Shown: one piece after another, positions 5,727 through 64,000 of the stretch
Position numbering within the stretch: position 1 is the first letter of the stretch
How the letters are laid out: the number at the start of each line of letters is the position of its first letter
NCBI GenBank assembly: GCA_051047955.1
Contig: JBPGPT010000054.1
Span: 1 to 64,000 of the forward strand
Direction: 5' to 3'
Source: Cystobasidiomycetes sp. EMM_F5
Taxonomy: Eukaryota
Length of the DNA stretch: 64,000 nt
Notes under the pieces: model-generated
What the model was told of the DNA's origin: nothing
Database searches by the model: none
Seen by the model: only the letters and a program-made list of their open reading frames with translations
Program-made: the position numbers and the translations under genes

Positions 5727-8700
5727 ATGTCGTCCAGCGTCCGCGTAGCCGTCAGATGTCGGCCCTTGAATGCCCGCGAGATTGCTCGGGGCGCAAAGGG
5801 TCTCGTCGAGATGCACGGCAACCAGACTATTCTCCGCAGCCCAGACGGCGCTGACGGCGACGCGGCATACGCAAAGTCGTCTTCAAGGGTTCCGCATACC
5901 TTTACATTCGACCATTCCTACTGGTCGGCAGGGGCCAAAGACGAGCCAAACTATGCATCCCAAGCAACCCTCTTTGACGACTTGGGAAGGCAACTCCTCG
6001 AGCACTCGTTTGAAGGCTACAATGTGCGTGGTTGATTGCGGATACTCTGCACTCTCATTGACGATTGTGTTTATTAGACTTGCATTTTCGCATGTGTGTT
6101 TGACAAGACCCGAGTGAAGTATCCATACGGCTGACCAGAGCTGCCTGTCATCCCTCAGATGGCCAGACGGGAAGCGGAAAGAGCTACAGTATGATGGGCT
6201 ATGGCGCAGATCGAGGCCTTATCCCGTTGACGTGCAGCGGACTATTCGACGTGTGTATTGTAACCGACGGCCCATGTGACATTGACTTGCAACTTACTAC
6301 TGAAATGCCCTTAGCGTATCACTTCTGCGTCGTCAGACACTCTGTCCTTTCATGTCGAAGTCTCGTTCATCGAGATTTACAACGAGCGAGTCAGGTCTGT
6401 TCTAGCCGTGGTCCCACATGTGCATGATAGTTCGCTAACGCTTGTCGATTGATGAAGAGACCTACTCAATCCACGAAATAAGGGCAATCTCAAGGTCCGG
6501 GAACATCCAAGTCTGGGCCGTGAGTGCGATTGGCGCAAAGACTCGACTCCTGGGACTGATCAAACATTCAGCCTATGTGGAGGATCTCTCCAAACTTGCT
6601 GTCGAGAGCTTTGCAGAGATGGAGAAGCTGATGGATGAAGGAAACAAAGTATGTCGCTCTATACATGTTTCATCCCCTATGCTAATGATGGCGTAACCTA
6701 GGCAAGAACCGTTGCATCGTAAGAATGAATATCAGCCTGTATTGACACTACGAGCTAAAGTATGGACGTGCAGAACCCAGATGAACGAAACATCGTCACG
6801 CAGCCATTCCGTCTTCACAGTGCTGCTCACGCAGCGAAAGATTGACATTGCGACAAAGATGGTAGGAGAAAAGGTCTCGCGTATCAGGTCTGTCTCGAAA
6901 CACTGCTCCTGCTGCTGAGTCACTGATACAAGTTGAGCAGTCTGGTGGACCTTGCTGGATCTGAGCGTGCCAATTCCACTGGTGCTACTGGTCAACGGCT
7001 GAAGGAAGGTGCTAACATCAACAAATCTCTAACAACTCTCGGTAAAGTCATATCGGCCTTGGCCGCTCAGAGTGCGGCACCGAAAGGCAAAAAGAAAGCT
7101 ACTAGTGCTGAATTTGTGCCATACCGCGATTCTGTCCTCACTTGGCTACTAAAGGACTCGCTTGGAGGTAATTCGCGTACTTTCATGATTGCTGCCATAT
7201 CGCCCGCGGATTACGAAGAGACTCTAAGTACTCTACGATACGCTGATCAGGCCAAGAAAATACAAAACAAGGCAGTCGTCAATGAAGATGCCAACGCCAA
7301 GCTGGTCAGGGAGCTCAAAGAAGAGCTTGCTCTACTTCGTGCTCGTGTTGCGGGCACATCTGGCGAGTCGGTGTACGACTCGAGTATCCCAGCCGAACAA
7401 CAGATCGTTCGCTATCAGACCAAGTCGGGCGAGATCAAAAGCGTGACAAAAGCAGAGCTGCAGGAGCAGCTAGAGCAATCGGAAAAGCTAATGGCCGACG
7501 TCAACCAAACTTGGGAGCAGAAGATGGAGAAGACAATCATCATACACAAAGAGCGGGAACAAGCATTGGAGGAACTCGGAATAACCATCGAAAGAGGCAA
7601 CGTCGGCATTCATACGCCCAAGAAGATGCCTCATCTGGTCAACCTGAGCGAAGACCCCCTCGCTTCTGAATGCTTATTGTACCAAATTCGACCAGGTCGA
7701 ACGACAGTCGGAAACATTGATACGGCTGACTCGCTCGACATTCGTCTCAGCGGCTCGAAAGTACTTCCATTACATTGTTTCTTCGAGAACACAGGCGACG
7801 GCAACGTCGAGCTTCACGCGCTTCCGGGAGGAACTACGATGGTCAACGGTTTACGTGTGAACAGTAGCAAGCCGAAGCAGCTCAAATCGGGCTACCGCCT
7901 TATTGTAGGAGATCAGCACTTCTTCCGCTTTAACAATCCTGAAGAGGTCCGCAAGGCTCGAGGTAGTACTCCGGGTACGTCTGGCTTGTCGCAGAGTATG
8001 AGCATGGAAGGTCTGGAAGACAAGGCAGCTCAGCTCATCGATGATGACGAAGACCCTCCTAAGCGCTTTGATACGCCAGAACAGAGACCTGTCAGTCCGA
8101 CCGCATCGGCCGTAGATTGGAACTACGCTCGCAGAGAGGCGGTTCTAGCAAAGCTGCATGGGCAGGAAGTTGATCTGGACCATTTGGATGACCGCGAGCT
8201 GGATACTCTGTTGTGAGGCAATCTTATCATTACGATGGTGGTACACCCATGCTAATAGCAGCTGTTTACCGCGTCAGCTCTGATCTGATGAAGGTCCGGT
8301 CTCATCGGCGCCAGGCTACTGGTACCGGCAGCGGTCGCCCAGAGTCGCGCGCCAGCTTTATGGACAGTATCGACGAATACGATGCCGATCAGACTTCGGC
8401 ATCCGCGTTCGGAGACGTGGTCCGCGAAGAAAGCTCAAGTACTGATGAGACGAGTTTAGGCATGCTGTCAAACACGACCAGTATGAGTGCTCTTGCTGAG
8501 CTGCAGCTGCGTGAGACGAAAGAAGAGCTGCAAAGGGAGATGGATACACAACGCGAGGAGTACGAGGTTAAGCTGAAGTCGCTGGCAGAATCTGTTATTG
8601 CCATCGAAACAACTCGTGCGGAGAAAGCGAAGATGGAAGAGCAGCTTGTGACAATGCAAGAACAGATGCAGCAGGAGCTTGCGAGGCAAAAAACTGAATA

Positions 8701-11377
8701 TGAACACCGTATGGCACAAGTCGCTAGCAAGGCAAAGGGTCGCAAGATCCGAAGAGACGTGAACGGTCTCGATGATGACGAGGTGGATCTTGCACACAGT
8801 GTCATCAAGAAGTGGCGAAAACTTCAAAGAATCAACATGGCACAATTCGTCCTCGCAAAAGCTGTGGAACTCAAAAAGGCAAATGTTGTCAGCCGTGAAA
8901 TGAGCAAAGGCGTCACTTATCAGTTCTGCGTCCTCGACTGCACAGCACCTCCGATCTCATCGCATGAAGGTTTCTCTGGTGCAGTGTACGATTTGGGAGA
9001 TACTGCCGGGGAAGCTGGGAAGCATTCCGACAGCGACCTCCCTCGCATTGGCATAAAGGTGATTGATCGCAAAAACACATGCATATACACTTGGACATAC
9101 CATCGCTTCGAGCAAAGTTTGCAGCAAATGTATAGAATTCTGAGCCTACTGGACAAACCTTCGTATTCTCAGCATTTCAATCTTGAAGATCCTTTCTATC
9201 AATCTTCGCCGCCCTCTTGGACCTCCATCGGGACTGCGACAATACCGCTCGGCCCTCTCAGCAAAAAAATACAACTGCTGACGAATGTGCGGATCTACTC
9301 GCATTACGATTCTCAACAACTCGGTACTTGCTGCGTGCGATTTAAGCCACTAGCCGTCGCCAAATCTGACAGGGATTTCAGCCCGTCATTGGCTAACCCG
9401 CTGCTTGAAGGGAGTCAATACTCGTTTGAGATACAGGTAGATAGCGTGAGTGGACTGGACGGTGCCGATTTCTCGTCTATTCATTGTCAAATACATCGGT
9501 CGCAATTGATACCGGGCAATGACACTGTCGACGAGGTCTATACCTCGCCTGTCGCAGATCTGGATAGTACTGGAACAACTCGCATGCGACTACGCAAGAC
9601 GCTTTGTATCGCTATGTCAGAGGCTGTCTTCAAACGTATGGCCACGGGATACGCAACTATCGAATTCTTCGCAAAATGCAAGCCCGCCTATCTGATCAAG
9701 TGTGAAAAGTGGGACGCTACCAAGGAGGAGAAGGCACCCATTCGACCGGGACACATGAATCGAGCGGACAGCGATCTGAAAAGCAATACAACCGGTCGCC
9801 GCGCAGAGACCGAAATGCTCACGGAACATGTCAATGACGTAAAAGCAATGCTCTCTATACAAGAATTATCCTCGAGCGGCGCCTATGATTCTGTGCCGCT
9901 GACAATGTCAAGTCCGCTTGATCCTGGGGTTTTCAATTGCCGCCAAGGTCTGCAAAGACGGATCAAAATCGTACTTTCGCACGCATGTGGAAAGCAATGG
10001 CAATGGAAAACGGTCAAAGATGTCAAGATCGGTAATGTACGCCTACTTGATCCCCGCGGACACGTTCTAGACTCTCGAAATACTGTAATGGTACCGCTAC
10101 CCTCCTTGGCCAAGCGATCCAAGATAGATTTTACCGCCAACGGAACGACCTCGTTGACCTTCCTAGCCGCTTGGGATAGTTCAGCTCACAATTCCCTTTT
10201 CTTGGACAAACTGACAGCCACCGGACACCGCGTCTTGCTAGAAATGAGTTGGGATCTTGACACTGCCGAATGTTCAGAAGCTATCCATTTTTCCGTAGAT
10301 ATAGGCCTCTCCATGCAAGACAGAGAAGCCAGGAGGGGTACAAGATTGTTCAGATTCTTTACCTCGGAAAAGACATCAAGTCAGGCTGTACAACTGTTCA
10401 AGGTAACCCTCAAACCGAAAGATGTCAACAAACCGCACGAGCTTTGGCGCCTGGACACATCGTAGGCTGCTCAAAATAGTAATGTTGCATATACTCATTG
10501 CTTCCGTTCTAGGTCCACCTTTGTCCGAGGGCAAGAATTGCTGCTTGACTGGAAGCCTCGCGGTATTTCGCTCGTAGAGGATTTCTATGATCGCAGAAGA
10601 GTGGAGCTCGACCTGGCAGACGTCATGACCACAAAAGCTATTCTTGCCGTCATACACTCAACTCGACTGATCCCCGCAACCCTTGGTCAGCTTCCCGAAA
10701 CCCGCATGTGGCAAGCTTTGCAGCTATGGGAGAAGCGACTGGGGTACGCTAAGCAGGTAGATTCCCGTTACGATCAAGGTGTGCTGGGAGTGTCTTCTAA
10801 CGGACTTGAGCAGCGAGTCCAATTAACGCAAAATCCTGATTGGCACCACATCGAGCAAGCTGTCACAAGCCCGCGTCGCATAGATCAAAATGGAGCTCGT
10901 TTTCGGCGGATGATTGCGCAAGTTCAGCATGTTGCGAAAGGGTGAGCAGGCAATCGTCGTATTGTAACGTAAGGAAACCGTACCCTTCTGACGATGCGAG
11001 GCAGGGAGACCGTCGCGAAGCGTGGCTATCTATACATCATGCTCGATGACGGACAGGATGTATGGATGAAGGTCTGGGCGGTATTTCGCCGTCCGTACCT
11101 CACGCTGTTCCGACACTCCGACGAGATGGAGGAGTTGACAAACATTATCAATATTTCTACTGTGCGGGTAGACCACAGTCTGGAGCTAGAGCAAGTGCTC
11201 AATGTAAGTGAAAGCCGCCGTATCGCGCTCGCTGCGAGCTAACGAGAGGCATCCCAGCGGAGTCACGCGTTTGGCGTATACACCGGGGTCAGCGCCTTAT
11301 TCGTGGCGGCAGACACCTTTCCGATCATGCTAGAATGGGCTCAGCTTATCGATCCCAGCTGGAGACGACACGAGTAG
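5727..11377 (+). CDS. Kinesin-3 (KIF1A/Unc-104-like): motor, FHA, coiled coil and PH domains
   Basis: [40 protein letters not shown], the PHLVNL..D FHA region, RQGLQRRI, and a C-terminal PH domain (KRGYL...[13 protein letters not shown]). Stop TAG at 11375-11377. Confidence 0.95.
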
Positions 11378-42631: not shown

Positions 42632-45158
42632 TCACTCATCATCTGGGCGTGGCTGAGGAGCCTGTTGTCCGCCCCACAGTCCCCTCAGGAACCCGCCTAC
42701 TGCATCTGCACCTGTGCGTTGTTCATTTGATCCGGCTTGTCTTCGAATATCCGGTTGCTGCTGATCTTGCTCAACTACGTCGTCTCCCTCACTCTCCTCG
42801 TCGGTCTGTGTCTCATCACCATTACTAGCACCTGGGAAACCGCCAGGTAAAGCCGCATTGCCTCTTCCTGTCGCCGCAAACTGTTCGAGCTGCGCAATGA
42901 TGGCAGCCTGAGTATCGGGATCCATATCCTCTTCAGCCCCTCCAGCGGCAGGATCACCGGCTACTCTCTGGAGATACTGCATAACTCTTTGCAACAGCCC
43001 AGCATCGCCGGTCGGGTCCCCTTGGCCTGTTCCTCGTCCTCTCGCACTAGTCCCTCTGGCTCGTCCATCGCTGTACAGGGGTGCAAAGTAGCGGTCGTCG
43101 AACCCTCCTCCGTCCCTTGGCGGTAAGGGATCATAAGCGTTCAACAAGCCACGTGAAAGGACGGTGCGTGGTAAGGCGGATCGCAGGGATTGTGGGAGAT
43201 CAGTAGCTACGAGGACATGTCGAAGAATACCTTCCGGCACGGCGTTGTTGGGATAGCTACCCTGCGACCAGAGTTGCAGGCCGGATTGGATGTCGGGATG
43301 TGAAGAGGTGGAGAAAAGGGGACCAGAGGCTCGAATGGTTCTACCCAGCCATGCCATGACCTCGGGTTCTCGCCACAGTGTCTCGCTTCGATGCACATAA
43401 ACGGCTGACAGGAGCTGAAGGATGTACGAAGGTTTGCTGTTTTGAGGAAAGATAGGCACAGTCGCCATCTCAGTACGATTACATCATAAAGAAGGTTGCT
43501 CAACTCACGCATACTGTGCATCCTCGACTTTGGCATGGGGTAAGCGTGACAATTCGGGTGGCACATTCAGACCAAGCTTGTCGAGCAAGATGACTGCAGT
43601 AAGTGGGTATTTCAACATCGCTTGCTGGAGATACTGTGTCGCTGTATCATCTTTTGCATCCGACTTGACAGACGAAGCCTGCAGACTGGCATCTATCTTT
43701 GATTTTCCACTGCCGACAACATCATTGTCGAGATGCCACCTGCTGAGGGCTCGGGCATAGTACAAGCCAGGATACGCTTCGGCGTGCAGATACGAAGACG
43801 GGTTGCTCTGCGCCGTGCTAGACATTGCTTGCGGAAGATGATCTACAAAGTCGATAAACCAAGAGTACTGCTTGCATTTAGGTGCTGTGAAATCGAGACT
43901 GAGTGCGACGAAGCAGATTAGCGCGTAGATCAGACGACTGAACAGCGTGTAGACTGAGCTCACTAGATCAGAGCGCCATACGGATCGTCAAACGGCGAGC
44001 AAGCATACAGCAGCTTTGTATGCTCATGCAAGGTCCTCCACGTTCCCCGCTTCATGAGCGACTGTATCCTCTTTTCAATCGCTCTAAAGAACCCTCTGGA
44101 CTCTATCCTCGTGAAATCGAGTCTGGCATTTCCGTTTTGCAGATTGAAGTTGGGAGCGAGTGCGCGTTCGTAGGCGTATATTGCTCTGTCTAGAAAATCA
44201 GACGACATGCCCTGATCGCCCTGCTGATGAGCCATATCTGACAGCTGGAGGAGATTCTCTACGTGGTATGGGTGTACGTGCATGAGCGCGAGGAGGGAAT
44301 TGGGGTCGTGCGAAGATACTGCCTCGAGGTACATTTGCGTAATCTCGCGGTACGCTCTGCTGTGTTCGAATGACCAGACTGTCTCGCCGGTGGACGACGA
44401 GACTACTTGCATCGACAGGCCTGCTTTTGCCAGTGCAGGATTAGGCCAGCTCTGTAGTGGTCTGGCTAGAAATGTCCCGCCGGCATTGCCGGCGTACTGT
44501 CGGCCCAGTTGATGGTGAGGGTTTCTCGCTCGTGCGCCCACTGGCGTGGACGCAGAGGACTGGTTGGCGGATTGACCTACCACTTTGGCACCAAAGAAGC
44601 GTTTGAGTTCCTGTACTGGATCTAGATGGGACTTGTCGACGGAGAGGAGGGTGCGAAAGTGCGACAGGGTGGTCGTAGTGGCGGTAGCTGAGGATGGATG
44701 TGGTGAAGCGTTGTCGGAGGAAGAGGATGGTCTGGATAGATTACTCAGTCTTGTCATTGAATACCATTCCAATCCATGGCCCACTCGATGCCCAACTCCT
44801 TCAATGCCCGGTCAATATCGTCGAGGTCTTCGTCGTCGTCGTCGTCGTCGAGTATACCTTTCTTCTTCTTCCTCTTCTTCTTCTTCTTGTTCTTGTTTGC
44901 TTTGCTCTTGCTTGAATCACTCGCCATCTTCCTCGTCGCTGTCGCAGTATTCACATCATCCTCGTCGTCTTCTGCATCGTCGTCGTCGTTGTCCAACACT
45001 GCAAACGATGACTTTCCAGACTCGGGCAGTCTAGTTGTTGCCATATCTTGATGAATATCGTTGATGATGTCCATCCCATCACCCTCCCCCAAACTGCTGC
45101 CCACTATCCCAGCCCCAATCTCGTCGTCTTGCTGCCGCCGTCTGCTCCCTCGAGGCAT
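42632..45158 (-). CDS. RQC1: Ribosome quality-control factor Rqc1/TCF25
   Basis: K-rich and D-rich N-terminus, LDP..ELKRFFG, HPYHVENLLQLS, RGTWRT..E..KLL...DDPYG and YDPLPP. Intron at 44732-44784. Confidence 0.88.
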
Positions 45159-52192: not shown

Positions 52193-55096
52193 TTAATCGC
52201 TCCTCGACAGGAAATCCGAAACGTCTGGGTTTGGCGAATGCTGATCTTCGCGCGAGATGGAAGTCGGCTGTTGCCAGGTCCTGCCTTCGTGCGAATTTGA
52301 TGAAGGTAGAACAGACCCCTGTCCGTTGAAGGCAAAATTCGGGCCCGAAGGCGACGATCCGCCCAGATGCATTGGACTGTAAGGCGTATAAGGGCCGCCC
52401 ATCTGCGCGGCGACTGATTGATGTTGCTGATATAGACCCGCTGTTGATGGCGGAGACAAAGGCGCTCCCGATAACATATGGTGTCCCAAGGTTGCTGGAT
52501 TTATCGGCGCAAAAGCGGAAGGCGAGACTCGGGAGTACGGCCCTCCCGCACTAGTGGACTGTATGTCGCGAGGCCAACCATAGCCTTGCGCACTAGTTGC
52601 GCTTAGCATGGGTTGATACGGGAGACTAGTGCTGACTGGTGCGGCCCCAACACCGGCTGCAATCGACATCGCGTCATACGGTCCAGTATGCTGCGGCTGT
52701 CCCGACCCTACGACAGCGGCACCAGGGCCAAGTGACAGCCCAAGACGGGCCATGTCCATGCGAACAGCGTCAATTTCGCCGGCTGTTGCACTGCGATAGC
52801 CGCCAGCCAAAGCGCTAGCGGAATTGCCATTGTTACCGACAGCAGATGCGATCTGTTTCAGCGTTGAATTGTCTTGACCTTGCACCATCCTCCAGACAGA
52901 TTCGAAGGGAACATGCAGCGCATTGGCGAGCTTCCGTACGTGCTCGACCTGCTTGTCCCCTTGCGATCTGCCCCAAGAGAGGCGAATGCGACTCTTCCCA
53001 TGGATAGGGAAATCGTGCATCTTGGCTATAGCAAGTTCGGCATCTGACCTTCTCACAAACTGCACAAATCCACAACCTTTGTTTGGCGGAACTTTGACAT
53101 AGGTAATCTCGCCGAAATGCTGGAAAAATGTACGCAAAGTGTCTTCAGAAATTGACGCAGGGAGACCGCCCACAAAGACTGTCGTATTGTTTGGATCGCT
53201 ACTGGGCGATAGCGGACTGGTGGGGTAGCTGCCAGGATGAGAAGAGCTGCTACGCAAAGCTGGCGAAGCGCGACTCTGCGACATGTTCATCGGGCTAAGT
53301 ATCCCACTTGACGAAGCGGAGAGTGGCGAACTGATTGGTACATTGAAAGCCGATGCATTCGGGCTGAGCAGCCCCGGAGATCGGCTCTGTCCCAGACCTG
53401 GGCCCGTTAATCCGAAAGGCGCGCTGCCTGAAGCAGACTCGCGCGAAGCAAAGGCTGCTGAGCCTGCAAAGTCGGGCCGCGTAAATGCCGTCCGCTCATT
53501 TCCATCCGGAACGCTGCCCTGTCCTTGATCTTCTATACTGCTTGTCAGGTTGTGGCTGGGAGACGCGGTGCCGTTTTCCCTCGACAATGCTCGTTGCCGC
53601 ATGCCTGTGCCTCCAGGGCCGCTTGCTTCGCTGATTCGCAAAGTTCGACCACGAAGGCTTAAGCCTCCACCAGCTGTATTCTGACCAAGGGCTAGTGACC
53701 GATGCATATCAGCCTCCTCGCCAAAGCGCACAAAGCCGTAGCCACGAGAATATCCGGTCGCTTGATCGTACATGATCTTGGCAGATTTAGTGGATGGGAA
53801 TATCGGAGTAAACAGTGCCTATAGCCAACGACATGATACTTAGCATAGACAGAAGTTGTATAGGCAATGCCATCACGTACCACTAGTTCGCCCTCGGTCG
53901 TCTCCCGACCGATGTCGCCAACGAATACTGAATATTCGCCCTCCCATTTAGGTTGTACACCTGGTAAGCCAGTCGCCCAATTGACTGTAGCGTACAACCA
54001 CGCCTCCTTCAGTATCTTTAAACCGATTGCTCGAAGGGCATCATGCCGACTCACGCTTGAACGTCCTCTCACTGCCTGGCATCAGCATGGGCGGCTGTTT
54101 CGCAAACTGAGCCAGGACAGACTGCGCTTGATGGGCAGCTGGAAAGGTGATGAAGCAGTAACCGCTGGATGTCGAAGCGCCTTTGATCATCTTTACGCTA
54201 GTCAGGATAGATTGGGCACCGCTCTGATCTCGGTCCCACCCCAAGGCAGCTATGCACCGTCGAATATAAGTTTCGTCCATCCACGCTTCTAGATCTCCCA
54301 TCCAAAGCGTGGCTGACGCTCGTTGCCCAGAGTCTACATCGTCGAGTTCGCGCTGCTCTCGAATCGCGCTCAACTGATCAGTATCAGACGCAAATGGTAC
54401 ATCGGAGGGAGCCAAAAGCCGATCTGTGTTGTCCAAGCCGCGAAGGCCCAGGCTTTCAGACGATGTGATTTCGCCGACTAAGCCTGACCCGATATGCACA
54501 TTGCTGCTCGAGCGTTTCCGCTCATATGGCTCGGTCATTGCTACGCCCTCATCTATCGCGCCGTTGAGGAAAGGTGTTTTGTACGACGCACTGCCCACGC
54601 TGTTCCTGTGTGCATGGCTAGCTGTAGCGCTACTAATAGAAGGCCAGGGTGTCGTGTGCTGCTGGGAAGCAGTATGCCCGTGCATGGAAGGTCGAGAAGC
54701 AGTAGATATACTTGCGGGCTGTGTGCTATTGTTGCTGGGAGGACTCGTGCCCAAGCGTCCGCTGCCTATTGCTGCCAAGGGCGACTGTGGCTGCAGAGGT
54801 AAGCCGCTCGAGGATACGCGAGTAGTCAAGTCGGGCCTAGTGGAGAAACGTGGCGAGGTAGCTTCGTCAAATTGTTGCTGTTCCTGTCGCGGACTTCGCG
54901 AGCCAAGCGATAGCGAATTCATGCTGGCATGGAGGGTATTTCCACCCTGTCCCATTCTCGGTGATTTGTTGGATGCTGCATTGTTGGCGTGGTTCTGTGT
55001 ACCAGGCGTTGCGGACGAATCGGCTGCAGAGACACCGCTTGCAGCTTTCCGGGCAGATGTCGGATACGTCCAGGTGGAAAGATTGGAAGCTGCCAT
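52193..55096 (-). CDS. Three-RRM RNA-binding protein, Nam8/Ngr1/Csx1 family
   Basis: TLWMGDLE.WMDE, GYCFITF, LNWATG, EYSVFVGD, SRGYGFVRF, DPNNTTVFVGGL and RIRLSWGRSQ. The exact 3' end is uncertain. Confidence 0.88.
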
Positions 55097-56479: not shown

Positions 56480-56587
56480 GGTGGAGTAGTGGTGAATACG
56501 GTGTTCGAAGGACGCAGCGTTGTGTTGGATGGCAATTGATGTACATGTCTCCGCTTCATCATCATCATCAAGGCACCGTGACATTGA

Positions 56588-59026
56588 TCAACACCCGCGA
56601 ATATACTCTAGCAGATGACCAACGATATCCCGCAGCTTTGCGCCCTCGTTGAATGCTCCCGATGTGCCATCCGCATCGCCATTCGTCTGCAAAGTCTTGC
56701 TGTCTATGCCTGTCGAGTCTCCTATATTCCTCTGGTACTCTTCCAGAACATCGACAACTTCCTTGAACGACGAACCTGCTTTGGCAAGCAAGTCGCGAGC
56801 ATGATCTCGGACCTGAAAGTCCGCAACACAGATTTAGCACACCCTTCGCTTCGCATAGACTGCCTCGACTCACGCCGTCATCTTCCATGCATATCCAAGC
56901 CAAGATGTAATCTGCCAGCTGTAGGCTGTACAAGCCTGCATCGAGACGACGCAAGTACTCTTCCACGTCATCTAGGTCCAACCCTTCCTTCTCTAGCATT
57001 TCGCGATCCCGCTTCAACTCGGCTTCTCGCTTTCTTACTCTTCCTAGCAGGGCTGTACGAATAGCGACAAGACGGGTGACTTTGGCATAATCCTCCTCGA
57101 CGAATTTGCGAAGAACGCGTATCCGAGAGACAGACTCGGACGGTAGATTCGCAAAGAGAGATGCCAGTATACCGAGAACGTGTTCTTCATCTGTCGAGCT
57201 TAGAATGCCCCACTTTTTACCAGCTTTCGCTTCCTGAGAGATGGGGCTGGATTCAGCCGGTGATGAGAGGGAGCGCTGTTGTTCAGGCTTACCGTCTGCA
57301 TCAAAGCGCTAAATAGCCCTTTGAGACCTTGCGCATCGACAAAAGTCTCGCACGCCTGCGCTCCCGCTTCCCCACTCATTGCATGATCGAGGACTTTGAT
57401 TGCCCTCGTTCGAGCAAGCAGTTTTTCTCGCATCATAATAACCATCAACTCGGTTCCTTCCTCTTGCACAAATATCGCTTTCGTCTCGGATGATGACAGG
57501 GCCGAGCAGAGTGCATCAAAGATGTTTTCCATGTATTCCAATTCTTCCGCTCCGAGCGGGTCTCGTTTTCGAAAAGTCTGGAAATTGCGAAATGTCAGTC
57601 GTCTGTGGATAAGCCAAGTGGGATCTACAGCTCACCGAGAGAACTTGCAGAGCTACTTGTACTCCGCCTTCCTTCGTAAAGGCATTTCGGGCATCCGCAC
57701 CGGCATCGCCTTGTAACAGGATAGCCAGCAACTCAGCTGCATACTGTCTATTCTGAGCCATAGCAGGATCTTCTGCTTTCTGTTTATCCTTGACCTGTGC
57801 TGCAGCTTTGCCCTTTTGCTTGTCCATCGAAGGTGGCTGCAGGCGTTTGAGCAGCCATGCCAGCAGAGTCGTCTGCGATGTGATTGTCGTCGACAATGTC
57901 GGTAGAAGAGACAAGAGGTTCTCGACCAAGCCAAGAGTGTGAAATACACCAGCTCGTTCCGCCTCCTCTTCTGCTTCCCTCAGCCGCGATATGTTGGCTA
58001 CTGCCAATTCAACGAGCTGTGCCTTGACGAGATCATCAGCCAGTTTTGCTACAGCGTCTCTTGCTCCGCCATCTACATCCTCGTCCTCATCTTCATCCCC
58101 TCCTTCTCCAGCTTCGGCAACATCGTCATCCGTCAGTTCTTCCAGCACGTTGACGACGGATAGTGAAATGTCAATATTCTCGTGTGATAGTAAATCTGCC
58201 AGGGACGACACAATGCCGAGCTTTGTCAGTTCGGGATAGAAGGCTGTCGGATTGGATGTGAGGAGGAGCAGCTCTTGGATCGCCGTATCCAGGGCGACTT
58301 CAGAGTCAACGTACCTGTTTTGCATGGGGTCAAACGGGATTTAGTTGGAATAACACACGCTCCACCCACTTTTCAGGCTGTCCTGCCCATTTTATCCTCA
58401 TTTCGGCATTCTTGTTGATGGCTCTCTCGAGGTTGAGTAGCTGTCTCCGCACGCTCTGCAGGCTGAGAGCAGAAGGGTCATTCCGGGTGTCTTGTCCGTC
58501 GTCTCCCTCGTCGAGTATCTCCAGAATCTGAACGGAGAGTCGTTAGAATACGCGCAAAGAGTACATACGACACTCTACGCACCTGCTTTTGCGTGCTCGA
58601 CAGACCACCGCCAAAGAACCGACCATCCGCATCTTCCTCGACAAAGTAGTCGCTGTCGTTGCCCGGCGCAAACGAAGCTTCGTAGGAATTATCCATATCT
58701 TCATTGTCGTCGTCGTCGTCGTCTTCTGCCACCGTCACTGCCGTCTGCTGCTGCACCAGTCGTTGTTTGCCCTTGTATCCGGCAATGTCTGCGTGAATGC
58801 CACATAAAAAGAGAGCGATATGCCCATCAGCACGCTCCCATCCCATCCCGTTCCATCGCTCATCCCATCCAATATCCCCCCACCGTCGCTAGCTTTCCGC
58901 TTTGCTGGACTTGCCAATAACGAGCTTCCAGCTGTCGGCAGCTTCGGGGCCTGCGATGGAATGGAACACTGTCAATGGCTGTTATCGTGTATTGCTCTCA
59001 GTGCCGACCTTGAAGACGGCGTCCAT
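56588..59026 (-). CDS. CTNNBL1: Beta-catenin-like protein 1 (PRP19/NTC spliceosomal component)
   Basis: EEDADGRFFGGGL, YVDSEVALD, LLSHENIDI, NRQYAAELLAILLQ, EYMENIFDALCS and YLRRLDAGLYSLQ. Confidence 0.92.
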
Positions 59027-59230
59027 GGTTGTTGCGGAATTGGCGAAACGGCAACAAGGGTTCAATATTTTGGATAGTGTCAATCTTGACTCTGCTCCAA
59101 TTGCTGAATACAAGACTACTGCAAACGCACACTGCAGTCTTAGACGCTGTTCTGCTATACCATAACCGCCTGAATCACCGCCAGCCTCGTCAAAGCGCCA
59201 TCCTTTCACGACATCTTCATCAATAAATCC

Positions 59231-60185
59231 ATGGCATCCAAGTCTGGCAATCCAGCCTCTGCGGCACTCGACAGCGGCAGCAACACGCCAGTAGTAGCGT
59301 CAAGTGCAGTTGGAGTGTCCCAGTCTCAGTCCCAGTCTGGATCCACGGCCGCAGCCAACGGTGGATACGACTATTCCGCATACTACGCCCAGCAGGGCTA
59401 CACGCCCGTAGCAGCGACGTCGACGGGCTACGATTCGACTGCGTATTCGTCGTATACCAGTGCAGCGGCAGGGACGAGCGGGGGTTACTCGTACAATTCC
59501 TACCCGGCCTACGATGCGACTGGATACGGCTACGGAGCAGAGTCGTCGAGCTACGCATCAGGCTCGGCGGGAGGTTACGGCATCACGGATGAAGAGCTCG
59601 CAGCACAGCAGTCCATCTGTGAGTATTGCGCCAATTCATCCTGGTCTGACACTGGCTGACTCGGATGACGTTCCAGACAATGCCGACAATGCAGCGCAGG
59701 CAGAGTTTACAAAGAAGGCCCAGAAGGGTCAAGCGAGGCGGACAGTGTTGCGCAAGGGAGCGGGAGAAGTATGGGAGGATGCGACCCTCATGGAGTGGGA
59801 TCCATCGCACTTTCGCCTCTTTATCGGCGATCTAGGCAACGACGTAAATGACGATACTCTCATTGCCGCCTTTGGGCCAGACAAAGGCTGGCCGTCGTTT
59901 GTCAAGGCCAAAGTAGTGCGAGATAAAGTAACAAACAAGACGAGGGGATACGGCTTTGTGTCGTACTCTGACCCGGAAGACTTTATGAAGGCGTGGAAGG
60001 CAATGAATGGCAAGTACGTCGGATCGAGGCCTGTCAAGATTCAGAAGGCGTCGACAGGCGTGAGGCAGGTCGATATAGGCCAGAAGAAGGCAAAAGATCT
60101 CGACACGAAAAAGAAGAAGACTGGACCGAGCAATAAAGTCAGAGGCGCACTCCAGACAAACTGGTCCGGGCATATCAGACGTTGA
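59231..60185 (+). CDS. RBM42-like RRM protein
   Basis: RTVLRKGAGEVWEDATLMEWDPSHFRLFIGDLGNDV...GYGFVS...MNGKYVGSRP. Confidence 0.9.
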
Positions 60186-60565: not shown

Positions 60566-62774
60566 TTACTTCTCAAGCCATGCACCGACGGTGTCGGCTG
60601 CAGCGATGCGAGTCTCCGGACGATTGGTGCCGTTAAAGCGCACGCTATAGCAAAATGACTTTCAGCAATGAGCTCAAGAGCGGACGGAAGCCACTCACAC
60701 GAGGCCCGCCGCTTCAATCTCGTCCACATAATCCTCGAATGTTGCGTATTTGAGACAGGTCCACTGTCTGCCATTCGGGAGTCAAAGTGTGTTCGCAGAA
60801 ATGCCTAGAAATGGCCACATACTTATTCAATGCATACTTGACTGCGCCCAGCAGCGGCTCTCCAGACCACATGACTTGCGATATCTGGATGGCGTACAAA
60901 AGAGGACGTGCGCGAATTTTGACTGTGCTTCCGCTCATGCTTGTACCTGCACAGGAGTCAGTAAATAGTTTGATGCAGGTGGTCCGCGGCAAGATGCTTG
61001 CCTTGGATCTTAGCACTGTCCAGTGCCTGCCACATCTTCACGTAGAGTTTGGATTTTGCTCCTTCATTATGAGAGAAGGTGCACTTGTCTGCAAAAGCGC
61101 AATGATTGTTGTAGAAGTGGTTTTTGCAGGGCACAGTCCGATGATTCGCCGATGTCGCATCTGATTTGACAGCTTGACCTGGTGCAGGAATACTATTACT
61201 GTCGTATGTAGTGCCCTTTGCCACCGGAGATGCAAGGGCATTCAAAACCGAAATGCTTTTCCACACATTATGCTGTGGAAGAGCGGGCGAGAAGGCGGAT
61301 GCGTTAGGCGCAGCGATCGCAGAGTTGTCGGCAGGCAGTGCAAGAGCTGTGCCATCTCCTTCAGTCGTATTGCAAAGGTCGAGAGACACCATCTTTGGTG
61401 AGGTCAATTTTTCAGCAGCTTTCTCATCAGCGGCAGACGTGAGAGATTGCATGTCGCCTGGCTGGGGCGCGTTTGCTGACGTTGAGCTCGTTACGGCTTC
61501 CGTCTTGTCGGATTTTGCGCGGTAAGAACTATTGTATAGAGGCTCTCGGCGAAAGAGACCAGCCGGCAGCTCGAAGAGCGGCAGTCCTAGATCCGCGTAT
61601 CCCCTTCACCCAAAGTCAGCCTATTCCACCATGACGTGCTGCATTCCACTTACTTTGCCATGAAAGATCCGTCTAAACGCGTGGCCACGAAGTCTGTCAG
61701 CCTTTGAATCATCGTATGAGCATAAAATCCCACTCTTAAGAACGATTAGCTTGTCGGACATATTAACAGTCACAAAATTGCTGAAATGCCAGCCTGATAA
61801 GCTCGGCGCGTGCATCAAGCATATAACGTATCATGAGTCCCTTACTTGAGTGCACCAATATAGCCTGCATCGTGAGAGCCGCCGATGATGATGGCGCCGC
61901 ATTGTGGCACTCCAGCGTAAAGTCGCATTGCCTCTGTCATTACCATTTAGCGGATGTTTGTCCGTCAGATACAGCGCTCGGATTGTGCACCAGAGACCCT
62001 ACCTTTGATTTTGTCGTCTGCATTATCTTTGCCGAATCCCACGTCAATCACAGCCAAAAGGTGCTGGGCGCTGCTCAGCCCTTGGATGAAGTTGTCATAA
62101 TGTATGCCGCCAATATTAGCATATTGTTTAAGTGCTGATCTCAGCCCTTCTCTGTTAAAGTCTGGAGTCGGAAAGGTGTCAATTCGCTTGAGGATTGAGG
62201 CGTCATTACCGACGTACAGATATTGACAATGATGGGGAGCTTGTCGACACCATCACCAGCCCAAGTGGCAAGACACGAACGTAGCATAGCCAGCAGATCT
62301 CGAGCTGCCTGCCGTCCGCCCTCTGCACCGACCTTCATCAATTCTTCAGCAAACTGCAAGAATATGGATGATCAAATGAAACCTGTTAAACATATCGTTT
62401 ATATACTAGCTCACTATGAGTCCGTCGCCATCCAGTAGAGCTACAGCGAAAGCTGCATCGCTGCATTTCCTGTGGGCTTTCATAGCTTGGTCCAGGGATG
62501 CCTGAAGGTCTTTGTTCTTGCGCTCGGTTTCGCTTTCTTTAACCTTGCATTCTTTGTTTAGCGAGCGCATAGCTTCCATACTGAGCTGGATCTCGTCTCT
62601 CTGAAGAAGTTGTCAGACAATACGTCAAACGCAAATCTTGTCAGACGAATTCACCTCAACTACTAGGGCCTCCTTCTCGAGTTTCAACTTGTCGACTAGA
62701 TCGGTAAAAGCAGTCATAATGGACGTGACCTGCGAGACATATTCGCCCGGGCTTAGGTATGCGTCGCCGCCCAT
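60566..62774 (-). CDS. Uncharacterised protein: coiled coil, NYN/PIN-like domain, CCCH zinc finger and C-terminal LOTUS-like winged helix
   Basis: LLDGDGLI/F, GAEGGRQAA, IDVGFGKDNADDKIK, GGSHDAGY, C-x8-C-x5-C-x3-H, and PLLYAI...FEDYVDEIEAAGLV. About 10 exons; stop at 60566-60568. Confidence 0.75.
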
Positions 62775-63353
62775 GTTGACCAAAGTTCTGTGATTGGAGG
62801 ACGCAACGGAGGTTTGGGCCGCGATCTTATTGGAAGGGAAGGAAAGAGAGGCAAGCCGCCCAGGCGTTTGCGTGCGAGACTTCACGTTCTCTTTGTTCAA
62901 CGTCTGACACTTGCACGCCATTTTGTGATCACCAGACGGTGTGCCCAACGGAAAACCAGTTCATTCAGATTCTAGGTTTCGCAAAACGGCAGCGGAGGCG
63001 GAACCGTGACAACCTCTATGGGTAGAGCAGAGCCACTTGTATACCAGCGGCAAGTAGATTATCATTGCAGTGTGCGAAGTATGCGCGAGCCGCGCAGTAT
63101 ATCCTATCGAAGTCTGCCCTCCTCATCTACGCTTGCCTGCCCGTATCGACGCTACAAGTGAGAAGGATCGCTCTCATGAGCTCCGTGAGGTCAGTCATCA
63201 GCGTTGAACAAGACGGAAGTAGGTGGAGACGGAGACGGAGGTTTGCCACATTGGAAGAAACGGAGTCATCTAGCATGACAACCTTTGTAATGGCGGTCAT
63301 CAAGAGTCAGTCTCATACAGCTCTGCAGCTATTGACATGTTGCGTTTTCCATT

Positions 63354-64000
63354 TCAGCGGCGAGACTCTGCGATGGCCTTCGTTACGACCACATAGGAAT
63401 TTGGTGTATAGCGACCACTAACGTACGCTCTACCGCGCTTACTTCATCAGCTCAATGCTTCAAAATTTCATGCGGATCACTCACACGAAGCCGCTTTCCT
63501 CTACTTCGTCGAGATAATCATCGAGACATTCAAATTGATCCTCCAGCCACGAGTTGATCCTATTAAACTGTCAGACTTGTCGTAATCGACAGTGTATACA
63601 CAGCGTACTGTTGTAGTGCAAACAAGACTATTTGAAACAAAGGCCGATAACACAGGCTTTGTGCGATATCGACAGCATATAGAAGGGGGAGCGCACGTTG
63701 CTCGGCAGTACACGGTCTAGAGGCACGCTCTGCATGTATATCTGCGTATCAGCAAAGCTGTCCACAAGACTAGCCTTATACGCACCATTGTCTGCCCAAG
63801 TTTCAACGGCTCTCCACATTTTGATACACGTATCCGAGATACGATTCGCAGAGTGACTGTGCTGGCAAGAATGGCCAGTTGAGCATTGCTGATGTAGAAA
63901 GAAAGGTTTGCATGGCAGACTCTCGTACATTCCGACTTCGACCGGCCAGGGCCAAGGTGGTCGAGTTGTCTGGCCAAAAGTGCCCGTTGGTTGAACGTCT
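63354..64000 (-). CDS. 3' part of a tandem paralogue of the 60566-62774 gene (CCCH finger and LOTUS-like helix); 5' end lies beyond the window
   Basis: CKPFFLHQQCSTGHSCQHSH, KMWRAV, RALPLLYAVDIAQ and LDDYLDEVEESGFV. Three introns sit at the same positions and phases as in the neighbour. Confidence 0.8.

What the first reader, a model, noticed from the sequence alone, without database searches (positions are those of the whole stretch)
60566..64000. Tandem pair of candidate RNA-decay proteins: NYN/PIN-like domain + CCCH finger + LOTUS-like winged helix
Seen in sequence: after manual splicing, gene 1 has a coiled coil, a domain with acidic motifs LLDGDG, GKDNADDKIK and GSHDAGY, a canonical C-x8-C-x5-C-x3-H finger, and a C-terminal module RARPLLYAIQISQ...EPLLGAVKYALN...FEDYVDEIEAAGLV. 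Gene 2, whose stop is ~580 bp upstream of the gene 1 start, shares the finger, KMW.A, RALPLLYAVDIAQ...RPLFQIVLFAL and LDDYLDEVEESGFV, with three matching intron positions. This is a real but strongly diverged tandem duplication. Established knowledge: NYN+CCCH is the Regnase/MCPIP architecture and NYN+LOTUS (OST-HTH) is the MARF1/Limkain-b1 architecture; both are animal RNA-decay or anti-transposon/antiviral nucleases. Inference: this may be a fast-evolving fungal RNA surveillance or defence nuclease family combining both accessory domains. Whether gene 2 has the NYN-like domain cannot be seen in this window.
Basis: partly seen in the sequence, partly recalled or inferred. Interest (0 to 1): 0.78.

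Follow-up and report, generated by a model that had tools for sequence, protein, structure and literature searches.

The report
Tandem fungal NYN-like zinc-finger genes
Two neighbouring, intron-rich fungal genes are diverged members of an uncharacterised protein family whose core domain folds like the RNA-cutting NYN domain of animal MARF1, followed by a zinc finger and a probable winged-helix tail whose LOTUS identity could not be shown.

Summary
Gene 1 (60566-62774, minus strand, 10 exons, about 543 aa) and the 3' part of gene 2 (63354-64000+) are real, diverged tandem paralogues. They share motifs, a C-x8-C-x5-C-x3-H finger and three intron positions.

This is a fungal family of coiled coil + DUF7923 + CCCH fingers. 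An AlphaFold model of a homologue matches the MARF1 NYN domain at Z 14.9 and VPA0982 at Z 12.5. The next match scores 8.2. No sequence method links DUF7923 to NYN. Gene 1 keeps 33 of 37 conserved family positions. The Asp at the end of strand 2 in MARF1 is an invariant Asn across this family.

In the 76 relatives retrieved, tandem CCCH fingers or an SRA domain occupy the place of the C-terminal module. That module scores equally well against OST-HTH, MarR, GntR and PadR profiles. It therefore looks like a generic winged helix, and LOTUS is not shown. It could not be folded, because spliced sequence cannot be handed to the fold tool.

One exon junction (exon 6) has an unresolved frame conflict, and no RNA data were available. 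Nothing supports a defence role. Verdict: a new variant of a known kind, of moderate interest.

The parts
60566..62774 (-). Gene 1 coding span, ATG 62774-62772 to TAA 60568-60566, about 543 aa. An in-frame upstream ATG at 62921 is an alternative start.
   Evidence: The spliced model is open over 543 codons. It scores 186-196 bits against an HMM of 75 family members.
62655..62774 (-). Gene 1 exon 1 (40 codons), start of the coiled coil
   Evidence: Donor GTGAAT, 54-nt intron. It aligns with the N-terminal helix of homologues.
62415..62600 (-). Gene 1 exon 2: coiled coil, then strand 1 of the NYN-like domain (LLDGDG; D97, D99)
   Evidence: There is a weak Pfam coiled-coil hit (DMPK_coil, E 0.0055).
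62218..62353 (-). Gene 1 exon 3 (GAEGGRQAAR ... IIVNI)
   Evidence: Pfam DUF7923, E 1.1e-4, profile positions 18-63.
62003..62161 (-). Gene 1 exon 4 (YFNREGL ... DVGFGKDNADDKIK; N150, D187, K192, D196)
   Evidence: Pfam DUF7923, E 4.1e-7, 30.4 bits against a 24.5-bit cut-off, positions 66-117. Fragments P0001-P0004 read across this junction without an intron.
61846..61933 (-). Gene 1 exon 5 (EAMRLYAG ... GGSHDAGYIGAL; H221, D222)
   Evidence: Pfam DUF7923, E 1.3e-4, positions 120-146.
61654..61780 (-). Gene 1 exon 6 region, unresolved. Acceptor 61780 encodes the conserved strand NNFVTVNMSDKLIVLK but breaks the frame at the GTAAGT donor 61653. Acceptor 61734 (AAG) keeps the frame but drops that strand.
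   Evidence: Family HMM scores of the four splice variants were 196.4, 188.3, 186.0 and 168.6 bits. See also the alignment.
61017..61603 (-). Gene 1 exon 7: end of the NYN-like domain (GYADLGLPLFELPAGLF), a 132-aa Ala/Ser/Thr/Pro-rich linker, the CCCH finger and the KMWQAL helix
61525..62471 (-). NYN-like domain (Pfam DUF7923), residues 84-283, introns included
   Evidence: HMM envelope, coordinates. The fold is inferred from the homologue model.
61069..61128 (-). Gene 1 CCCH finger, C-x8-C-x5-C-x3-H (residues 416-435)
   Evidence: Pattern found. Pfam zf-CCCH hits are weak (E 0.02-0.03, below cut-offs). It aligns with the first finger of the family.
60823..60946 (-). Gene 1 exon 8: first part of the C-terminal module (RARPLLYAIQISQ ... 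YALN)
   Evidence: 15 of 40 columns are identical to gene 2.
60699..60767 (-). Gene 1 exon 9 (QWTCLKYATFEDYVDEIEAAGL): putative recognition helix
60566..60644 (-). Gene 1 exon 10 (VRFNGTNRPETRIAAADTVGAWLEK, stop): putative beta wing
63786..64000 (-). Gene 2, first visible exon (runs off the window): CCCH finger at 63912-63853 and the KMWRAV helix
   Evidence: Pfam zf-CCCH_12, E 0.074.
63609..63729 (-). Gene 2 exon homologous to gene 1 exon 8 (RALPLLYAVDIAQ ... FALQ)
   Evidence: The intron before it is 56 nt, GTGCGT..CAG.
63485..63559 (-). Gene 2 exon homologous to gene 1 exon 9 (LDDYLDEVEESGF)
   Evidence: 49-nt intron, same phase 2 as in gene 1.
63354..63429 (-). Gene 2 last exon, stop TGA 63356-63354
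   Evidence: 55-nt intron, GTGAGT..TAG, phase 2 as in gene 1.

Best explanation
Two tandem paralogous genes of a fungus encode divergent members of the Pfam DUF7923 family. Gene 1 has, in order:
- an N-terminal coiled coil, probably for self-association;
- an alpha/beta domain with the fold of the MARF1/LabA-type NYN nuclease domain;
- a 132-residue low-complexity linker;
- one C-x8-C-x5-C-x3-H finger;
- a C-terminal module of about 80 residues with a winged helix-turn-helix pattern. This module replaces the tandem CCCH fingers that most retrieved relatives carry.

The most likely mechanism, which is inferred and not shown, has two parts. The finger and the winged-helix tail bind a nucleic acid, most probably single-stranded RNA. 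They present it to a metal-dependent phosphodiesterase pocket formed by residues at the C-terminal ends of the parallel strands: D97 and D99 (strand 1), N150 (strand 2), D187 (strand 3), K192 and D196 (following helix), and H221 and D222 (after strand 4).

Shown here: gene structure, paralogy, family membership, family-level NYN fold, and retention of the conserved residues.
Inferred: catalysis, RNA as the substrate, and the fold of the tail.
For: Family membership:
- Three consecutive exons hit PF25540 at contiguous profile positions 18-63, 66-117 and 120-146.
- The spliced protein scores 186-196 bits against an HMM of 75 relatives.
- blastp against the stored relatives gives a best E of 6.8e-32.

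Fold:
- The AlphaFold2 model of homologue P0013, built with a 75-row alignment, has pLDDT 89.2.
- VIA-align against 48,161 chains gives mouse MARF1 NYN Z 14.8 (147 of 150 residues, rmsd 2.7 A) and VPA0982 Z 12.5. The next matches are ExoIX 8.2, Rae1/YacP 7.4 and T4 RNase H 7.3, all PIN-like nucleases.
- Human MARF1 NYN scores Z 14.9.
- The top Foldseek hits are also MARF1 NYN (probability 1.00, TM 0.74).

Residues:
- Gene 1 keeps 33 of 37 invariant or near-invariant family positions, including all 7 invariant ones.
- A low-confidence hhalign alignment to 49 bacterial NYN domains pairs IDGDG with iDfeN, FFN with YcDW, GKEAAD with GKNaaD and HDnGY with gDSDF. These correspond to the positions of MARF1 D178, D215, D246 and D272 as described in PMC6217404 (passages read).

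Tail:
- The gene 1 + gene 2 profile aligns the same core (FEDYVDEIEAAGLVVRF...ETRIA) to the recognition helix plus wing of four independent winged-helix families. Scores are 22-25, against 13.4 for an alpha/beta control.
- Of 106 unrelated real-protein windows, 0 to 2 reach those scores per template.

Context: relatives pair the same domain with other nucleic-acid readers. zf-CCCH_tandem occurs in 21 of 76 and SAD_SRA in 18 of 76.
Against: - Gene 1 itself could not be folded. The fold rests on a homologue about 37% identical in the domain.
- No sequence method links DUF7923 to NYN. Pfam NYN is absent at E <= 1 in 10 homologues. The full-length profile comparison gives probability 0.25%. The domain-level hhalign gives only P 0.005 and probability 6.9%. 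Foldseek found no match at E <= 0.001.
- The strand-2 aspartate, which is essential in MARF1 (D215A is inactive; PMC6217404), is an invariant Asn in the family. Activity may therefore be altered or absent.
- The residue mapping comes from secondary-structure positions and a weak alignment. It does not come from a superposition, and clustering of the residues in space was not measured.
- The winged-helix reading of the tail rests on a two-sequence profile with modest scores.
- The exon 6 frame conflict means that either the conserved strand 5 is missing or the model needs an implausible 40-nt intron or a sequence error.
- No expression data were available.
Confidence: 0.6

Rival explanations
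1. The NYN-like domain is a pseudo-nuclease. The family binds RNA through its fingers or tail and acts as an adaptor or regulator without cutting.
For: An invariant Asn sits where MARF1 has the essential strand-2 Asp (PMC6217404). The motif after strand 4 is HD rather than the SgDsDF of bacterial NYN domains. No sequence-level match to any nuclease family was found.
Against: The other three acidic positions, plus D187, K192 and H221, are invariant or nearly so across 75 sequences from distant fungi. That pattern is typical of an active site. VPA0982, a NYN-fold protein, also lacks an Asp at the aligned strand-2 position (alignment), so that Asp is not universal in the fold.
Confidence: 0.22
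2. The C-terminal module is a true LOTUS/OST-HTH domain. Genes 1 and 2 would then rebuild the MARF1 architecture (NYN + LOTUS) with an added CCCH finger.
For: hhalign of the module against bacterial OST-HTH domains covers 65-67 columns, nearly the whole domain, in the expected register. The score was 28.1 (P 1.2e-4), and 23.6 and 17.5 with other settings and templates. None of 200 column shuffles reaches these scores. NYN + OST-HTH is a known pairing in bacteria and fungi (PMC5499597 and PMC2848206, passages read).
Against: MarR, GntR and PadR profiles score as high (24.8, 23.1, 22.1). Pfam OST-HTH does not hit the exon translations at E <= 1 or <= 10. An HMM of 49 OST-HTH domains scores 0.2 and -2.1 bits on spliced genes 1 and 2. 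None of the 76 relatives carries PF12872 in the precomputed lists.
Confidence: 0.2
3. The proteins act on DNA or chromatin rather than RNA. The winged helix would be a DNA-binding module and the NYN-like domain a DNase or flap-type nuclease.
For: 18 of 76 relatives fuse DUF7923 to a SAD/SRA domain (E 3.6e-45 in P0042). The profile also hits UHRF1 SRA in the PDB. The second tier of fold matches is made of 5'-3' DNA exonucleases (ExoIX, T5 D15, Pol I 5' nuclease; Z 6.8-8.2). MarR, GntR and PadR are DNA binders.
Against: The two best fold matches are a demonstrated ssRNA endonuclease (MARF1) and its bacterial relative VPA0982, well above the DNA nucleases. CCCH fingers of this spacing are mostly RNA binders; this is established knowledge and was not tested here.
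Confidence: 0.12
4. Gene 1 is a decaying or mis-assembled copy, with a frameshift in the exon 6 region, and gives no functional full-length protein.
For: The conserved strand DKLIVLK is readable only in a frame that cannot be joined to exon 7 through consensus splice sites. With the GTAAGT donor at 61653, that reading stops after about 290 residues.
Against: 33 of 37 conserved positions are intact. There are no stops in any of the ten exons. The finger and tail are conserved with gene 2. Two alternative GT..AG solutions keep the frame. A single-base assembly error in the G run at 61604-61601 would also explain the conflict; this is inference.
Confidence: 0.1

Closest known systems
Pfam DUF7923 (PF25540) proteins of fungi, for example the 'C3H1-type domain-containing' and 'C-x8-C-x5-C-x3-H type zinc finger' proteins of Rhizoctonia, Ceratobasidium, Trametes, Calycina and Trichoderma (names as given by sources)
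   Same: Coiled coil, DUF7923 domain with the DGDG, N, DVGxGKxxAD and HDxGY motifs, a linker, then a first CCCH finger followed by a short helix.
   Different: Genes 1 and 2 lack the zf-CCCH_tandem (PF25543) or SAD_SRA C-terminus. They carry instead an 80-residue Cys-poor module that a profile search found in 0 of the 80 stored proteins. Gene 1 sits on a terminal branch of 1.50 substitutions per site, against a median of 0.08.
MARF1 / Limkain-b1 (NYN + RRM + LOTUS repeats), an animal ssRNA endonuclease
   Same: The nuclease-domain fold matches at Z 14.8-14.9, rmsd 2.7 A, with 146-147 of 150 residues aligned. Acidic residues sit at the ends of strands 1 and 4 and at the start of the helix after strand 3. 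The nuclease is combined with separate nucleic-acid-binding modules.
   Different: There is no detectable sequence relationship (12-15% identity in the structural alignment). The strand-2 Asp is replaced by an invariant Asn. There are no RRMs. A CCCH finger is present. There is one tail module rather than eight LOTUS repeats, and its LOTUS identity is unproven.
Bacterial and fungal LabA-like NYN ('LK-nuclease', DUF88) + OST-HTH proteins, for example VPA0982 (PDB 2qip)
   Same: The fold matches at Z 12.5 over 148 residues. The order is the same: nuclease domain first, small helical nucleic-acid-binding domain last. This pairing is common. OST-HTH was found in 148 of 301 genomes sampled from one bacterial phylum (the phylum of G003), and the 28 open frames read from them were NYN + OST-HTH proteins.
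   Different: The Pfam NYN and OST-HTH models do not match. The motif after strand 4 is HDxGY rather than SgDsDF. A coiled coil, a long linker and a CCCH finger have been added.
Regnase-1 / MCPIP1 (ZC3H12A) family
   Same: A PIN-superfamily nuclease-type domain is combined with a single CCCH finger.
   Different: There is no PF11977 match. The finger lies 132 residues downstream rather than abutting the nuclease domain. The fold is closest to the MARF1/LabA branch, and Regnase was not among the rows listed. That absence does not exclude a lower-scoring match.

Membership tests
Pfam DUF7923 (PF25540) | Match to the family HMM above the gathering score (24.5 bits) | tested here: met
   Exon 4 alone scores 30.4 bits. 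Exons 3 and 5 score 22.5 and 22.3 bits at adjoining profile positions. The spliced protein scores 186-196 bits against an HMM built here from 75 members.
Pfam DUF7923 (PF25540) | Conserved residue set (DGDG, GG, N, DVGxGKxxADxKI, HDxGY) | tested here: met
   33 of 37 invariant or near-invariant positions are kept, including all 7 invariant ones.
Pfam DUF7923 (PF25540) | Complete domain including strand 5 (DK[IL]V[LV]L) | tested here: inconclusive
   The strand is encoded at 61780-61735, but it can be joined in frame only by a 40-nt or a 144-nt non-consensus intron. The consensus-type model omits it.
NYN domain (MARF1 / LabA-like, PF01936; PIN-like superfamily) | Alpha/beta/alpha sandwich with a parallel sheet that superposes on solved NYN domains | tested here: met
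   Tested on homologue P0013, not on gene 1 itself. 6fdl_B Z 14.9, 5yaa_A Z 14.8, 2qip Z 12.5; next best 8.2.
NYN domain (MARF1 / LabA-like, PF01936; PIN-like superfamily) | Four conserved acidic residues (strand 1, strand 2, helix after strand 3, strand 4) | tested here: inconclusive
   By secondary-structure position and a weak hhalign alignment, three are kept (D97, D196, D222 in gene 1). The strand-2 position is an invariant Asn (N150). No residue-level superposition was possible.
NYN domain (MARF1 / LabA-like, PF01936; PIN-like superfamily) | Sequence match to the family model | tested here: not met
   No PF01936 hit at E <= 1 in 10 full-length homologues or in the exon translations. Profile-profile A3 against A4 gives probability 0.25%. 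Domain-only hhalign gives P 0.005.
NYN domain (MARF1 / LabA-like, PF01936; PIN-like superfamily) | Mg/Mn-dependent ribonuclease activity | not testable with these tools
   Needs a biochemical assay.
LOTUS / OST-HTH (PF12872) | Sequence match to the family model | tested here: not met
   No Pfam hit on exons 8, 9 or 10, or on the 107-aa open frame. These are fragments, so this is a weak test. An HMM of 49 bacterial OST-HTH domains scores 0.2 bits on spliced gene 1 and -2.1 bits on gene 2.
LOTUS / OST-HTH (PF12872) | Profile similarity that is specific to OST-HTH among winged-helix families | tested here: not met
   OST-HTH 23.6 and 17.5, against MarR 24.8, GntR 23.1 and PadR 22.1. All exceed nearly all background windows, so the signal is generic winged helix.
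LOTUS / OST-HTH (PF12872) | Winged helix-turn-helix fold | not testable with these tools
   The module is split over three exons, and spliced sequence cannot be handed to the fold tool. No intron-free relative was found.
CCCH zinc finger (PF00642 and relatives) | C-x8-C-x5-C-x3-H spacing | tested here: met
   Found in both genes. The gene 1 finger aligns with the first finger of the family.
CCCH zinc finger (PF00642 and relatives) | Pfam score above the gathering cut-off | tested here: not met
   Gene 1 scores 14.6-15.0 bits against cut-offs of 20.5-29. Gene 2 zf-CCCH_12 scores 13.2 against 27.
Regnase / ZC3H12A (PF11977) | RNase_Zc3h12a domain directly followed by a CCCH finger | tested here: not met
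   No PF11977 hit. The finger follows a 132-residue linker.

The most novel reading that the evidence does not exclude
DUF7923 is a previously unrecognised family of MARF1-type NYN ribonucleases that is widespread in fungi. Its substrate reader is exchangeable: tandem CCCH fingers, an SRA domain, or in this tandem pair a LOTUS-like winged helix. On this reading genes 1 and 2 independently rebuilt the animal MARF1 layout and act in transposon or mycovirus RNA surveillance.
Probability: 0.2. Interest if true: 0.7.

Novelty: new variant of a known kind. Interest (0 to 1): 0.5.

Why it matters
Fungi lack a characterised counterpart of the animal NYN endonucleases MARF1 and Regnase. This work gives a catalogued but unexplained Pfam family (DUF7923) a concrete, testable fold assignment and a short list of candidate catalytic residues. 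It also shows that the family swaps its nucleic-acid-binding tail between zinc fingers, SRA and a winged helix.

Full-text searches for DUF7923, PF25540, PF25543, PF25542, zf-CCCH_tandem and zf-CCCH_12 found no paper. The assignment may therefore be new to print. Pfam or InterPro notes could not be consulted.

If activity is confirmed, the family would be an entry point to RNA decay or genome-defence pathways in fungi. If not, it is one more example of a nuclease fold reused for binding.

Tried and rejected
- Own-genome search: no genome is held for this window.
- Word-indexed protein searches with exon 7 and exon 4 found nothing.
- The exhaustive representative search with exon 4 gave only 4 short fragments. 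Their alignment then seeded the search that worked.
- RNA evidence: no RNA holder was listed, so no reads were laid.
- Earlier scan notes: none for this place. One unrelated archaeal NYN note was not used.
- ESM Atlas on exon 4 and exon 8: no usable hit.
- Metagenome scan with the exon 8 alignment: one locus, with a 22-aa match containing a stop and nothing else of gene 1. I judged it a chance match.
- PDB sequence searches. The exon 8 profile hit only espin at E 1. The family profile hit SRA, CCCH and coiled-coil chains but no nuclease.
- Global hhalign of DUF7923 against NYN was meaningless.
- Regnase/MCPIP1 was not among the rows listed by either VIA-align run. This does not exclude a lower-scoring match.
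- dN/dS between the paralogues was not computed. At 25 of 82 identical residues, synonymous sites would be saturated.


Full report
**What is there**

On the minus strand between 60566 and 62774 I rebuilt a 10-exon gene with nine GT..AG introns of 50-111 nt. It translates to 543 residues without a stop.

The visible part of a second gene runs from the window edge to a TGA at 63356-63354, which is 579 bp upstream of the gene 1 ATG.

tblastn of spliced gene 1 against the whole window finds gene 2 and nothing else. The linked E is 3.4e-7, with 28.6% identity over 49 aa at the finger and 41.7% over 36 aa in the tail. Over the tail, 25 of 82 aligned residues are identical. The three introns visible in gene 2 (56, 49 and 55 nt) have the same phases as their gene 1 counterparts. 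Two sit at identical aligned positions and the third lies within one residue.

The surrounding 60 kb encodes ordinary eukaryotic housekeeping genes: Nop14, kinesin-3, cullin, PP2C, Tcf25, AAA ATPases, RRM proteins and CTNNBL1.

**A weak spot in the gene model**

Homologues have a conserved fifth strand, [L]DK[IL]V[LV]L, followed by GY. Gene 1 encodes NNFVTVNMSDKLIVLK behind a good acceptor at 61780. That frame cannot be joined to exon 7 (GYADLGLPLFEL...) through the strong GTAAGT donor at 61653, because the reading then stops after about 290 residues.

- The model that keeps the frame with consensus-type sites uses an AAG acceptor at 61734 and omits the strand.
- Two other GT..AG solutions keep both the strand and the frame. 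One needs a 40-nt intron and the other a 144-nt intron with a weak donor.
- Against an HMM of 75 relatives, the four variants score 196.4, 188.3, 186.0 and 168.6 bits.

No RNA run was listed, so this stays open. A one-base assembly error or a genuine lesion are both possible.

**Family**

Exons 3, 4 and 5 each hit Pfam DUF7923 (PF25540) at adjoining profile positions. Exon 4 alone is above the gathering score.

Direct protein searches with exons failed. An exhaustive search with exon 4 found four short fragments, which read straight across the exon 3/4 junction and so support that intron. Their alignment retrieved 76 full-length proteins, mostly from Agaricomycetes, with six from ascomycetes or unnamed sources.

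The usual layout is coiled coil, DUF7923, linker, a CCCH finger, then tandem CCCH fingers. PF25543 occurs in 21 of 76. Another 18 of 76, all from polypore fungi, end in a SAD/SRA domain. None carries OST-HTH.

Spliced gene 1 aligns to these over residues 20-300 at 25-43% identity, with a best E of 6.8e-32. It keeps 33 of 37 conserved positions.

In a FastTree of 73 domain sequences, gene 1 has the longest terminal branch (1.50 against a median of 0.08). Under midpoint rooting it joins the ascomycete group deeply. Rows whose match covered fewer than 130 profile positions were dropped, and support values were not examined. The sample was seeded from basidiomycete-like fragments, so 'no close relative' may reflect sampling.

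**Fold of the core domain**

I aligned 75 of the 76 relatives, leaving out the partial P0075, with P0013 first. AlphaFold2 gave a model with mean pLDDT 89.2. It shows a 49-residue helix followed by a beta-alpha repeat with five parallel strands.

- Foldseek found nothing at E <= 0.001, but its top rows were the MARF1 NYN domain (E 2.1e-3, probability 1.00, TM 0.74 on the target).
- VIA-align against 48,161 representative chains gave mouse MARF1 NYN Z 14.8 (147 of 150 residues, rmsd 2.7 A) and VPA0982 Z 12.5. After a clear gap came ExoIX 8.2, Rae1/YacP 7.4 and T4 RNase H 7.3.
- A second look added human MARF1 NYN at Z 14.9.

The family therefore has the MARF1/LabA-type NYN fold.

At the level of sequence there is no link. 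Pfam NYN is silent. A PDB profile search finds no nuclease. Full-length profile-profile comparison gives 0.25%.

**Candidate active site**

According to PMC6217404 (passages read), MARF1 needs four aspartates:
- D178 at the end of strand 1;
- D215 at the end of strand 2;
- D246 at the start of helix 3;
- D272 at the end of strand 4.

In the model, the conserved DUF7923 residues occupy the corresponding places (P0013 numbering):
- D62 and D64 after strand 1;
- the invariant N108 after strand 2;
- D145 after strand 3;
- K150 and D154 at the next helix;
- H179 and D180 after strand 4.

A weak domain-level hhalign (P 0.005) against 49 bacterial NYN domains, fetched through the genome search, gives the same pairing. 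Gene 1 has D97, D99, N150, D187, K192, D196, H221 and D222.

So three of the four canonical acidic positions are kept and one is an invariant Asn. I could not superpose structures or measure distances, so spatial clustering is inferred from topology only.

**C-terminal module**

In place of the tandem fingers, genes 1 and 2 have about 80 residues with a single Cys. A profile of the two finds nothing in the 80 stored proteins.

Pfam gives no hit on the exon translations. Because joined sequence cannot be given to the Pfam or fold tools, I tested the LOTUS idea inside the script box.

- I collected OST-HTH domains from bacterial genomes. From one phylum, 28 of 31 loci were used. From two more phyla, 15 of 16 and 7 of 7 were used. 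Dropped loci are listed in steps_to_tell.
- An HMM of the 49 distinct domains scores 0.2 and -2.1 bits on the spliced proteins.
- Profile-profile scores were 28.1 (P 1.2e-4) or 23.6 against the one-phylum set, and 17.5 (P 0.009) against the three-phylum set. They cover 65-67 columns.
- None of 200 column shuffles reached them. Of 106 unrelated real-protein windows, 2 and 0 did.

The specificity control was decisive. MarR, GntR and PadR profiles built the same way score 24.8, 23.1 and 22.1, while an alpha/beta control scores 13.4. Background windows reach these in 1, 0 and 0 of 106 cases. All four winged-helix templates align FEDYVDEIEAAG to the recognition helix and LVVRF...ETRIA to the wing.

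The module therefore looks like a winged helix, but nothing singles out LOTUS.

**Known background**

NYN + OST-HTH and OST-HTH + CCCH pairings are already described (PMC2848206 and PMC5499597, passages read). The second paper notes that fungal LabA-like PIN domains are usually fused to OST-HTH. Full-text searches for the Pfam names and accessions of this family found no paper.

**Verdict**

This is a real tandem pair of divergent DUF7923 genes. The family has a MARF1-type NYN fold. The CCCH finger is confirmed by its spacing. The tail is probably a winged helix and is not shown to be LOTUS.

The most likely function is RNA binding coupled to metal-dependent cleavage. The Asn at the strand-2 site keeps a non-catalytic reading alive, and the SRA fusions keep a DNA-related reading alive. 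Nothing supports a defence role.

Noticed in passing
proteins P0029, P0041-P0043, P0046, P0047, P0050, P0051, P0054, P0055, P0057-P0064: 18 of 76 retrieved DUF7923 proteins, all from polypore-type fungi by the source names, end in a SAD/SRA (YDG) domain. This domain is known from UHRF1 as a reader of methylated DNA. It suggests a link between this nuclease-like fold and DNA methylation or genome defence.
   Followed up: partly
proteins P0022 and P0026; P0007 and P0013: Other fungi also carry neighbouring copies. P0026 and P0022 have consecutive locus tags (FRC10_006974 and FRC10_006975) on one 33,423-bp contig. P0007 and P0013 share a contig. P0005 holds two DUF7923 domains in one 844-aa protein. 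Local duplication seems recurrent in the family.
   Followed up: no
window 62921-62919 and 60938-60936 (minus strand): An in-frame ATG 147 nt upstream of the chosen start would add 49 residues to gene 1. Exon 8 holds an in-frame ATG three codons after its start (MSGSTVK...), so the tail could in principle be translated on its own.
   Followed up: no
window 59174-60185 (+): An RRM-domain gene (Pfam RRM_1, E 4.2e-14) ends at about 60185. It converges on the 3' end of gene 1, about 380 bp away. Another RRM gene lies at 52193-53818 (-). This is probably coincidence, but both neighbours are RNA-binding proteins.
   Followed up: no
window 56568-58340 (-), 42632-44811 (-), 6927-10465 (+): Split open frames of CTNNBL1-like, Tcf25-like and kinesin-3-like genes show that the whole window is intron-rich core chromosome with housekeeping content.
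   Followed up: partly
L001:2860-2925: A metagenome contig holds a 22-residue stretch resembling the RARPLLYA motif (55% identity). It has an internal stop and no other similarity to gene 1. I judged it a chance match.
   Followed up: yes
loci L118-L148: OST-HTH was found in 148 of 301 sampled genomes of one bacterial phylum (the phylum of G003). In all 28 open frames that I read from them, it follows a LabA-type NYN domain in a protein of 250-430 residues.
   Followed up: partly
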